DNA of 64,000 nt from Octopus vulgaris. Taxonomy: Eukaryota. Location of the stretch: the NCBI GenBank assembly GCA_951406725.2, contig OX597821.1:11594001-11658000 (forward strand). The letters are read 5' to 3'. Shown piece by piece: positions 31,141 through 31,526 of this stretch. A program made the translations under genes and the position numbers. A model generated the notes under the pieces. It searched no databases, had not been told where the DNA came from, and saw nothing but the letters and a program-made list of their open reading frames with translations. Every line of letters begins with the position of its first letter. Positions within the stretch are counted from its first letter, which is position 1.

Positions 31141-31526
31141 TTATTAAATCTCAGAGCGAGATGTAAACAGTAACCGCTCGACAACGTAAAGTATAACAGC
31201 CATCTCAATATGGCTAACCACAAAGTGGGGGTGTTACTGTAGCTTTTAGCCCCAGGAGATCGACGTCTCCAGCTGGCTTTAGACACACTTTCTGTGCCCT
31301 TCCTCGTAAGCCTTAGTGATACGCACGGACCACGATTTCGAGATTGTCTCTTATGAACGGGCGGTAACCACCAGGTCACGATGGTCCGGTGCGTATCACT
31401 AAGGCTTACGAGGAAGGGATGGCTTCCCTTTGCAAATACCTAGAGGGCACAGAAAGTGTGTCTAAAGCTACAGTAACACCCCCACTTTGTGGTTAGCCAT
31501 ATTGAGATGGCTGTTATACTTTACGT
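31141..31526 (-). mobile_element. Fold-back retroelement end (arms 31183-31332 / 31382-31527) with 12-bp TSD and no hammerhead
   Basis: TATTATTAATCT at 31129-31140 and 31527-31538; long inverted arms. Confidence 0.8.

What the first reader, a model, noticed from the sequence alone, without database searches (positions are those of the whole stretch)
31183..31300. Candidate undescribed structured RNA (possible ribozyme) in the hammerhead position of HHR-less retroelement ends
Seen: three diverged elements share one motif on the strand that runs toward AATAAA and/or the (TA)n end. 31288->31225(-): GUGUCUAA AGCC AGCU GGAGA-cgucga-UCUCC UGG GGCU AAAAGC UACAGUAACACCCCC. 10168->10110(-): GUGUCGAU AACC AGCU GGAGGA-gaug-UCUUCC UGG GGUU ACAAGC UACAGUAGCAUC. 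46264-46325(+): GUGUCAA AGCC AUC AGGAGGC-gucgau-GCUUCCU AG GGCU AUACAGC GGUGGUGUACCCCC. The outer stem co-varies (AGCC/GGCU vs AACC/GGUU), the inner hairpin changes sequence but keeps pairing, and the 5' GUGU can pair with ACAC, GCAU or GUAC downstream. Two of the three are fold-backs, one with a 12-bp TSD. Established: canonical PLE pseudo-LTRs carry HHRs, whereas the N-terminal-endonuclease Naiad/Chlamys PLEs form inverted insertions, favour microsatellites and lack canonical HHRs. Inference: this fold may be the functional replacement, a self-cleaving or RT-recognition RNA. By eye it does not fit hammerhead, HDV-like or twister cores.
Basis: partly seen in the sequence, partly recalled or inferred. 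Interest (0 to 1): 0.85.

Follow-up and report, generated by a model that had tools for sequence, protein, structure and literature searches.

The report
Conserved RNA fold in hammerhead retrozymes
The motif is one hairpin of a conserved folded-RNA module in the end region of short (about 360-base), protein-free jumping elements that do carry a hammerhead ribozyme sequence, and it likely serves as the handle by which a borrowed Penelope-type reverse transcriptase grips the RNA and picks its two start points.

Summary
The motif is real at all three places. The reading 'replacement for a missing hammerhead' is wrong. The three window copies are 5'-cut members of ~360-nt non-coding tandem units whose fuller copies carry a type I minimal hammerhead 50-60 nt upstream of the module (65 of 85 arms spanning it have an intact core). 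15 of 29 pairs swap Watson-Crick type across 11 representatives. No Rfam family matches the module. Insertions look Penelope-made: two fixed 3' ends 44-60 nt apart, inverted 5' copies, (TA)n targets. Four autonomous C-terminal-endonuclease Penelope-like families in this genome share that habit but lack the module, so the partner is unidentified. Best guess (0.55): the module captures the reverse transcriptase and positions its start sites; it spans the same window as the minimal template of the anole element. A second ribozyme is unlikely (0.05). Verdict: new retrozyme superfamily with an apparently undescribed cis-structure.

The parts
31142..31527 (.). Family-1 retrozyme insertion as a fold-back: left arm on minus (about 31142-31380, long end with tail), right arm on plus (about 31381-31527, short end, hairpin B deleted)
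31322..31363 (-). Type I minimal hammerhead of family 1 (U3-A8 core variant in the family); this copy has G5 changed to C and is predicted inactive; cleavage site between 31328 and 31327
   Evidence: Rfam HH9 E=6.7e-5, below gathering score, on family copy L021
31282..31298 (-).
   Evidence: 3 of 6 pairs swap Watson-Crick type across 11 representatives
31248..31278 (-).
31233..31240 (-). 5' strand of long-range helix D
   Evidence: 6 of 8 pairs swap type
31199..31214 (-). Hairpin C, inside the loop closed by helix D
31142..31182 (-). Optional 3' tail between the short end (31183) and the long end; holds the 3' strand of helix D (31167-31174) and a small hairpin
31129..31140 (+). Left copy of 12-bp direct repeat (likely target-site duplication)
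31527..31538 (+). Right copy of the 12-bp direct repeat
10035..10172 (-). 5'-truncated, older family-2 copy (88-90% to best relatives) between TA-rich repeats; starts inside hairpin A, ends at the long end; the family's canonical CUGAUGA hammerhead is cut off
   Evidence: model R1 hit E=3.8e-22
46074..46369 (.). Family-3 fold-back in (TA)n: left arm minus with long end, right arm plus (about 46240-46369) with short end; the family's CCGAUGA hammerhead is cut off

Best explanation
The motif is hairpin B of a conserved module of about 165 nt (hairpins A, B, C, long-range helix D, tail hairpin) that follows the hammerhead in a superfamily of ~360-nt non-coding tandem elements of the non-LTR retrozyme kind, and the module is likely the cis-signal that a Penelope-type RT-endonuclease supplied in trans binds to set its two internal start sites. 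Shown: unit length and tandem repeats, hammerhead sequence, covarying module, two fixed 3' ends, inverted 5' copies, (TA)n targets. Inferred steps: (1) a tandem array is transcribed; (2) the weak hammerhead with a palindromic stem III cuts as a dimer, and monomers may circularise; (3) the RT-EN binds the module, nicks (TA)n DNA and starts cDNA either inside the loop of helix D (short end) or just past the tail hairpin (long end); (4) copying runs 5' through the hammerhead rod, often past the cleavage site into the next unit, so the template is an uncut multimer or a circle; (5) the two cDNAs give the inverted two-armed insertion.
For: Hammerhead: 65 of 85 arms spanning it have an intact core (families 1-5); families 6-9 also carry one. 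Unit: tandem spacings 347-363 nt and a hexamer plus inverted dimer in TA repeats at L200. Module: model R1, built from families 1, 2 and 5, finds the unseen families 3 and 4 (best E 1e-8 and 5e-15). 15 of 29 pairs swap Watson-Crick type, 305 of 319 cells pair, and G-U outnumbers A-C 20 to 6, favouring the hammerhead-sense RNA strand. The A+B segment is as conserved between families as the hammerhead (mean 0.68 vs 0.67) and more than the 5' arm (0.59; shuffled 0.48-0.52). Insertion signature: two end clusters in all five families tested, e.g. family 3: 20 short, 22 long, 4 read-through of 46; family 4: 15 short, 16 long, 6 read-through of 38. 69 of 127 loci hold both orientations, and 117 of 215 arms are followed by (TA)4 within 24 nt against 5% background. 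82 of 161 arms run upstream past the cleavage site. Geometry: in the anole element the minimal template is +20 to +172 with RT starts at +111-118 and one tail further (PMC11167929), i.e. about -91 to +61 around the first start; this module spans about -115 to +50. Four autonomous families in this genome end in (TA)n; three show two ends, and N4 has a 47-nt tail and a U3-A8 hammerhead like families 1, 5 and 7.
Against: No autonomous element carrying the module was found. Models R1/R2 gave no hit inside the four families (the hits were separate retrozyme insertions in flanks), and their post-hammerhead regions are shorter and fold differently. A true RT handle would be expected to resemble its partner's RNA. 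The geometric match rests on one element of another clade. Helix D cannot form in the cDNA-copied part of short-end insertions, so selection on it acts only through tandem or long copies. All covariation counts come from alignments fitted to my structure and from related families. No binding, cleavage or expression data.
Confidence: 0.55

Rival explanations
1. The module serves the circular-RNA stage, not the RT: it stabilises the monomer or circle, recruits a host ligase, polymerase or chaperone, or helps switch the RNA between the hammerhead-inactive rod and the active dimer fold. The RT then needs only a small local signal at the ends.
For: Whole monomers are predicted 61-67% paired with the hammerhead buried at the tip of a long rod. 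The module is absent from all four autonomous families, as expected of a retrozyme-specific function. Known animal retrozymes accumulate as self-paired circles (PMC7229834). The alternative GUGU pairing (86% pairable) could be a switch.
Against: The module brackets exactly the two insertion ends and helix D reaches into the tail. Several bases in stems are invariant rather than merely paired, which suggests specific recognition.
Confidence: 0.27
2. The conserved stretch is a DNA-level internal promoter or other DNA signal, and the pairing is incidental.
For: Penelope-type terminal repeats hold internal promoters (PMC8557442 passages), and tandem retrozymes must be transcribed.
Against: 15 of 29 pairs swap Watson-Crick type, including a helix whose strands lie about 60 nt apart, with G-U favoured on one strand.
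Confidence: 0.06
3. The module (hairpin B with neighbours) is a second, new self-cleaving or ligating ribozyme working beside the hammerhead.
For: No Rfam match on the module. A conserved internal loop with C-G, U.U and invariant U and G. The hammerheads are weak variants (U3-A8, U4C, short stem III).
Against: A hammerhead is kept in every family, with covarying core variants. Only 8 invariant unpaired bases, spread over five loops. No sharp pile-up of 5' ends in or before the module among 161 arms (these are censored at the query start).
Confidence: 0.05
4. One reading: the motif replaces the hammerhead at the ends of hammerhead-less Naiad/Chlamys-type elements.
For: (TA)n bias and inverted insertions fit Naiads (PMC8557442). 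Two of the three window copies lack a hammerhead.
Against: Those two copies are 5'-truncated; fuller copies of all families have the hammerhead. The unit is a closed ~360-nt repeat with no ORF. C-terminal-EN families here show the same (TA)n and inversion habit.
Confidence: 0.02

Closest known systems
Animal non-LTR retrozymes (Cervera and de la Pena 2020, PMC7229834; mussel 350-390 nt, axolotl 330/350 nt)
   Same: Short non-coding tandem unit of about 360 nt, one type I hammerhead per unit, predicted highly self-paired circle, co-existence with autonomous Penelope-like elements.
   Different: Here the hammerheads are minimal variants (canonical, U3-A8, U4C). Most copies are dispersed, truncated and inverted with a clear two-end tail signature. 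About ten diverged families share a covarying 3' module. The two parts and passages I read describe no such module; supplements not seen.
Retrozymes as pLTR derivatives of Penelope-like elements (Li, Clavereau, Pollet 2026 preprint 10.64898/2026.07.22.740005)
   Same: Non-autonomous, hammerhead-bearing, proposed to be moved by Penelope-like elements.
   Different: There, 24 of 57 Xenopus families match known elements, mostly pLTRs. Here none of four autonomous families shares the module or detectable sequence with the units.
Anole Poseidon PAc template RNA (Frangieh et al. 2024, PMC11167929)
   Same: Hammerhead followed by an RNA region that ends in two internal RT start sites a tail apart; AT-rich target; uncleaved RNA as template.
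   Different: In PAc the region is the start of the ORF and the tail is 30-40 nt. Here it is non-coding, the tail is 44-60 nt, and a multi-helix fold is supported by covariation. No sequence comparison to PAc was possible.
Minimal PLE hammerheads including the U3-A8 variant (Cervera and de la Pena 2014, PMC4209133)
   Same: Minimal type I core, palindromic stem III for dimer cleavage, U3-A8 covariation.
   Different: Describes the hammerhead only, in autonomous elements and their fragments, in the two parts read.
Naiad/Chlamys elements (Craig et al. 2021, PMC8557442)
   Same: (TA)n bias, inverted 5' copies, optional tail.
   Different: They lack canonical hammerheads and encode an N-terminal-EN ORF; these units have hammerheads and no ORF.

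Membership tests
Non-LTR retrozyme | Type I hammerhead in each unit | tested here: met
   65 of 85 arms spanning it are intact in families 1-5; cores of 9 representatives listed
Non-LTR retrozyme | Short (150-450 nt) unit occurring in tandem | tested here: met
   spacings 347-363 nt; hexamer at L200
Non-LTR retrozyme | No protein-coding ORF of its own | tested here: met
   tblastn with N1 finds no ORF linked to the units in 120 + 40 loci (two unlinked flank hits); the unit closes on itself
Non-LTR retrozyme | Highly self-paired circular fold | tested here: met
   predicted only: 61-67% paired for 6 of 6 monomers
Non-LTR retrozyme | Self-cleavage in vitro | not testable with these tools
   needs transcription assays
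Non-LTR retrozyme | Expressed as linear and circular RNA | tested here: inconclusive
   only assembled contigs of runs guessed to be RNA were available
Non-autonomous Penelope-like element | Two alternative 3' ends (optional tail) | tested here: met
   5 of 5 families
Non-autonomous Penelope-like element | Inverted 5'-truncated copy and partial tandems | tested here: met
   69 of 127 loci hold both orientations
Non-autonomous Penelope-like element | Homology to the terminal repeat of an autonomous partner | tested here: not met
   none in four autonomous families plus one old family; other families may exist unseen
Naiad/Chlamys PLE | Lack of canonical hammerhead | tested here: not met
Naiad/Chlamys PLE | N-terminal GIY-YIG ORF linked to the end | tested here: not met
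   no ORF in the unit; no Naiad-specific query was run on the genome
Known small self-cleaving ribozyme classes (for the module itself) | Match to an Rfam ribozyme model | tested here: not met
   0 hits at gathering score in the window; no ribozyme hit on the module up to E=10 in 5 loci
New self-cleaving ribozyme (for the module itself) | Compact invariant core and a defined cleavage site | tested here: inconclusive
   8 scattered invariant unpaired bases; no sharp 5'-end cluster; cleavage itself not testable

The most novel reading that the evidence does not exclude
These retrozymes carry a self-made RNA module, unrelated in sequence to any autonomous element in the genome, that captures a Penelope-type reverse transcriptase by shape and dictates both internal start sites. 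That would be the first defined trans-mobilisation signal of an animal ribozyme-bearing circular RNA, kept across about ten families down to 45% identity, and a portable tag for directing a telomerase-related RT to (TA)n DNA.
Probability: 0.3. Interest if true: 0.75.

Novelty: new variant of a known kind. Interest (0 to 1): 0.45.

Why it matters
How animal retrozymes are copied back into DNA is open; Penelope-like elements are the proposed but unproven helpers. This superfamily shows the full Penelope insertion signature on a non-coding hammerhead RNA. It also offers a covariation-supported RNA fold that brackets the two start sites, plus four young autonomous candidates with intact ORFs in the same genome. 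That makes the question directly testable in the in vitro assay already published for the anole element. The element class itself is known, and the hoped-for new ribozyme has no support.

Tried and rejected
Rfam: nothing at gathering score in the window; at E up to 10 only microsatellite and fold-back noise plus Hammerhead HH9 on one family-1 hammerhead. By-eye fits of the module to twister, HDV-like, pistol and hairpin cores (recalled consensus, no call) failed once families 3-5 were seen. The GUGU/ACAC pairing has no double changes. Partner search: N1 (window 47799; 21,117 first-look candidates), N2, N3, N4 and an old family all lack the module. Apparent links at L337/L338, L346, L385 and L393 proved to be separate insertions beside or between autonomous copies. 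A search with a distant relative returned what appears to be N1 again. The Pfam scan of N1 gave 0 families. Weak word-level resemblances between the module and N1 or N4 ends (a hairpin like C; an AC-rich run) sit at different positions relative to the ends and were not pursued. Metagenome pattern scans: 0 and 0; these patterns are narrow, so this is no evidence of absence elsewhere. Sequencing runs: no RNA holder listed; runs under four organism labels hold family-3 words; the four runs laid are contigs and say nothing on expression, ends or circles. Scripts 49, 104 and 107 stopped on errors; 107 covers families 1-4 only. The family-4 row in the identity table includes an inverted piece, so its values are too low and were not used. 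Literature searches found no paper describing these elements or this module; subscription journals, Repbase/Dfam entries and all supplements were not seen.

Full report
Observation. The 31183 and 46264 elements are fold-backs, and a 12-bp direct repeat flanks the first. Rfam has nothing at gathering score in the window. Each string belongs to a large family in the 2.8-Gb host genome: 2149, 2401 and 1905 first-look candidates (lower bounds). The repeat landscape reminded me of an octopus; that is recall, not a test.

What the elements are. Extending the copies 5' does not lead to an ORF. It leads back into the element's own 3' tail, so the unit is a closed repeat of about 350-363 nt. About 70 nt before the GUGUC motif every family has a type I minimal hammerhead with a palindromic stem III: U3-A8 core in family 1, canonical CUGAUGA in family 2, U4C in family 3. 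The U3-A8 variant is described for Schistosoma Penelope-like elements in PMC4209133 (parts 1-2 read). The window copies at 10110 and 46264 are simply cut 3' of the hammerhead. The 31183 element keeps it at 31322-31363 with a G5-to-C change. In families 1-5, 65 of 85 arms that span the hammerhead have an intact core. So the premise 'HHR-less' fails.

More families. A profile of the motif found further families in flanks, which gave families 4 and 5. Sixty 10-kb stretches gave families 6-8, among them a hexamer with an inverted dimer in TA repeats (L200), and a ninth appeared at L346. With subfamily 1b that is about ten. Identities between whole units run 45-82% (family-4 row set aside). In the 52 evenly picked stretches (520 kb) 3 held strong and 2 weak hits. 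That suggests on the order of 16,000-27,000 insertion loci, with wide error.

The fold. Model R1, trained on families 1, 2 and 5, recovered families 3 and 4. On 12 rows, 13 of 29 pairs changed on both sides, with 0 of 500 shuffles as high. On 18 distinct rows it was 16 of 29, with 2 of 500, and slid controls paired 34-45% against 92%. With 11 representatives, 15 of 29 pairs show more than one Watson-Crick type, 305 of 319 cells pair, and G-U outnumbers A-C 20 to 6. These alignments were fitted to my structure and the rows are related, so the shuffle counts are not probabilities; the 'further pair types' measure did not beat its shuffles. The A+B segment is as conserved between families as the hammerhead, 0.68 against 0.67. 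Only 8 unpaired bases are invariant and they are scattered. Rfam at E up to 10 matches nothing on the module.

How they insert. All five families tested end at two fixed places 44-60 nt apart. The short end lies inside the loop of helix D; the long end lies past the tail hairpin. 69 of 127 distinct loci hold both orientations, and 117 of 215 arms reaching the 3' region are followed by (TA)4, against 5% of random 24-mers. 5' ends are scattered: 82 of 161 arms (families 1-4) run past the cleavage site and 5 lie within 3 nt of it, so the template is mostly an uncut multimer or a circle. This is the Penelope pattern of PMC8557442 (passages read). PMC11167929 (parts 1-2 of 4 read) showed for the anole element that the tail is the stretch between two internal RT start sites and that the minimal RNA covers +20 to +172 around starts at +111-118. 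The module here covers nearly the same window around its short end.

The partner. The window holds a fragment of an autonomous family at 47799-49031. Four young families with intact ORFs were examined: N1, N2, N3 and N4. All have a C-terminal GIY-YIG region after a cysteine-rich linker, which fits the Neptune/Nematis description; no tree was built. All have their own hammerhead and end in (TA)n. N1 and N2 have tails near 70 nt, N4 47 nt, and N3 showed one end. None carries the module. N4 is the best candidate by tail length and its U3-A8 core, which is inference only. This negative result weighs against my best explanation and is unlike the Xenopus picture, where many retrozymes match terminal repeats (preprint 10.64898/2026.07.22.740005, parts 1 and 3 of 5 read).

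Mechanism and rivals. I commit to RT capture and start-site positioning (0.55).

Comparison with what is known. The elements meet every testable defining feature of animal non-LTR retrozymes (PMC7229834, parts 2-3 of 6 and passages read); cleavage and circles are untested. Eight literature searches found no description of these families or of such a module. PMC10886601 was seen in three passages and the other listed papers as search listings only. Supplements, Repbase/Dfam and subscription journals were not seen and may list the repeats. The scan's own notes had no sequence look-alike and nothing for this genome; one note describes a tRNA-bearing tandem element with the same insertion habit in another genome.

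Verdict. A real, covarying, apparently uncatalogued RNA module in a new retrozyme superfamily; not a hammerhead substitute. New variant of a known kind, interest 0.45.

Noticed in passing
window 47799-50265 (+): 5'-truncated copy of a very active autonomous Penelope-like family (N1; 21,117 first-look candidates, many intact 727-codon frames) with its own minimal hammerhead near 50125 and a long (TA)n end. PMC8557442 calls cephalopod Naiads extinct, but these C-terminal-EN families look recently active.
   Followed up: partly
window 20735-21020: Fold-back of another element end with a CUGACGA minimal hammerhead on both strands (20865 minus, 20889 plus), in TA repeats; no module hit; family not identified.
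   Followed up: no
L299:331-3343, L342:2973-5624, L385:2708-4966: Three further young autonomous families (N2, N3 with a 6.2-kb tandem unit and long CA-rich UTR, N4); N1, N2 and N3 hammerheads differ in stem II and N4 uses U3-A8.
   Followed up: partly
L200:2081-4760: Near-identical hexamer of family 6 with an inverted dimer at its 5' side, long end on one flank and short end on the other; the best natural substrate for cleavage tests.
   Followed up: partly
L196:9180-9240: Family-8 hammerhead has an extended stem III region (19 nt) instead of the short palindrome and might cut as a monomer.
   Followed up: no
L215, L217, L225: A further abundant end family with U3-A8 hammerhead and two ends; its tail resembles that of N4.
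   Followed up: no
L004:334-379, L145:172-233, L334:1926-1986: The same 46-62-nt piece of family 1 (helix D 5' strand to hairpin C) recurs at several loci inside what looks like another repeat, as if captured and spread by it.
   Followed up: no
window 11037-11420 (+): 3' fragment of a non-LTR element ORF next to (TAA)n, resembling R4/Dong endonuclease ends (label recalled, not tested).
   Followed up: no
window 55744-56858: Tandem repeat with a period of about 51 nt.
   Followed up: no
L126:3211-3480, L385:530-965, L393:290-915: Retrozymes inserted in the same (TA)n tracts that flank autonomous copies, consistent with a shared target.
   Followed up: partly
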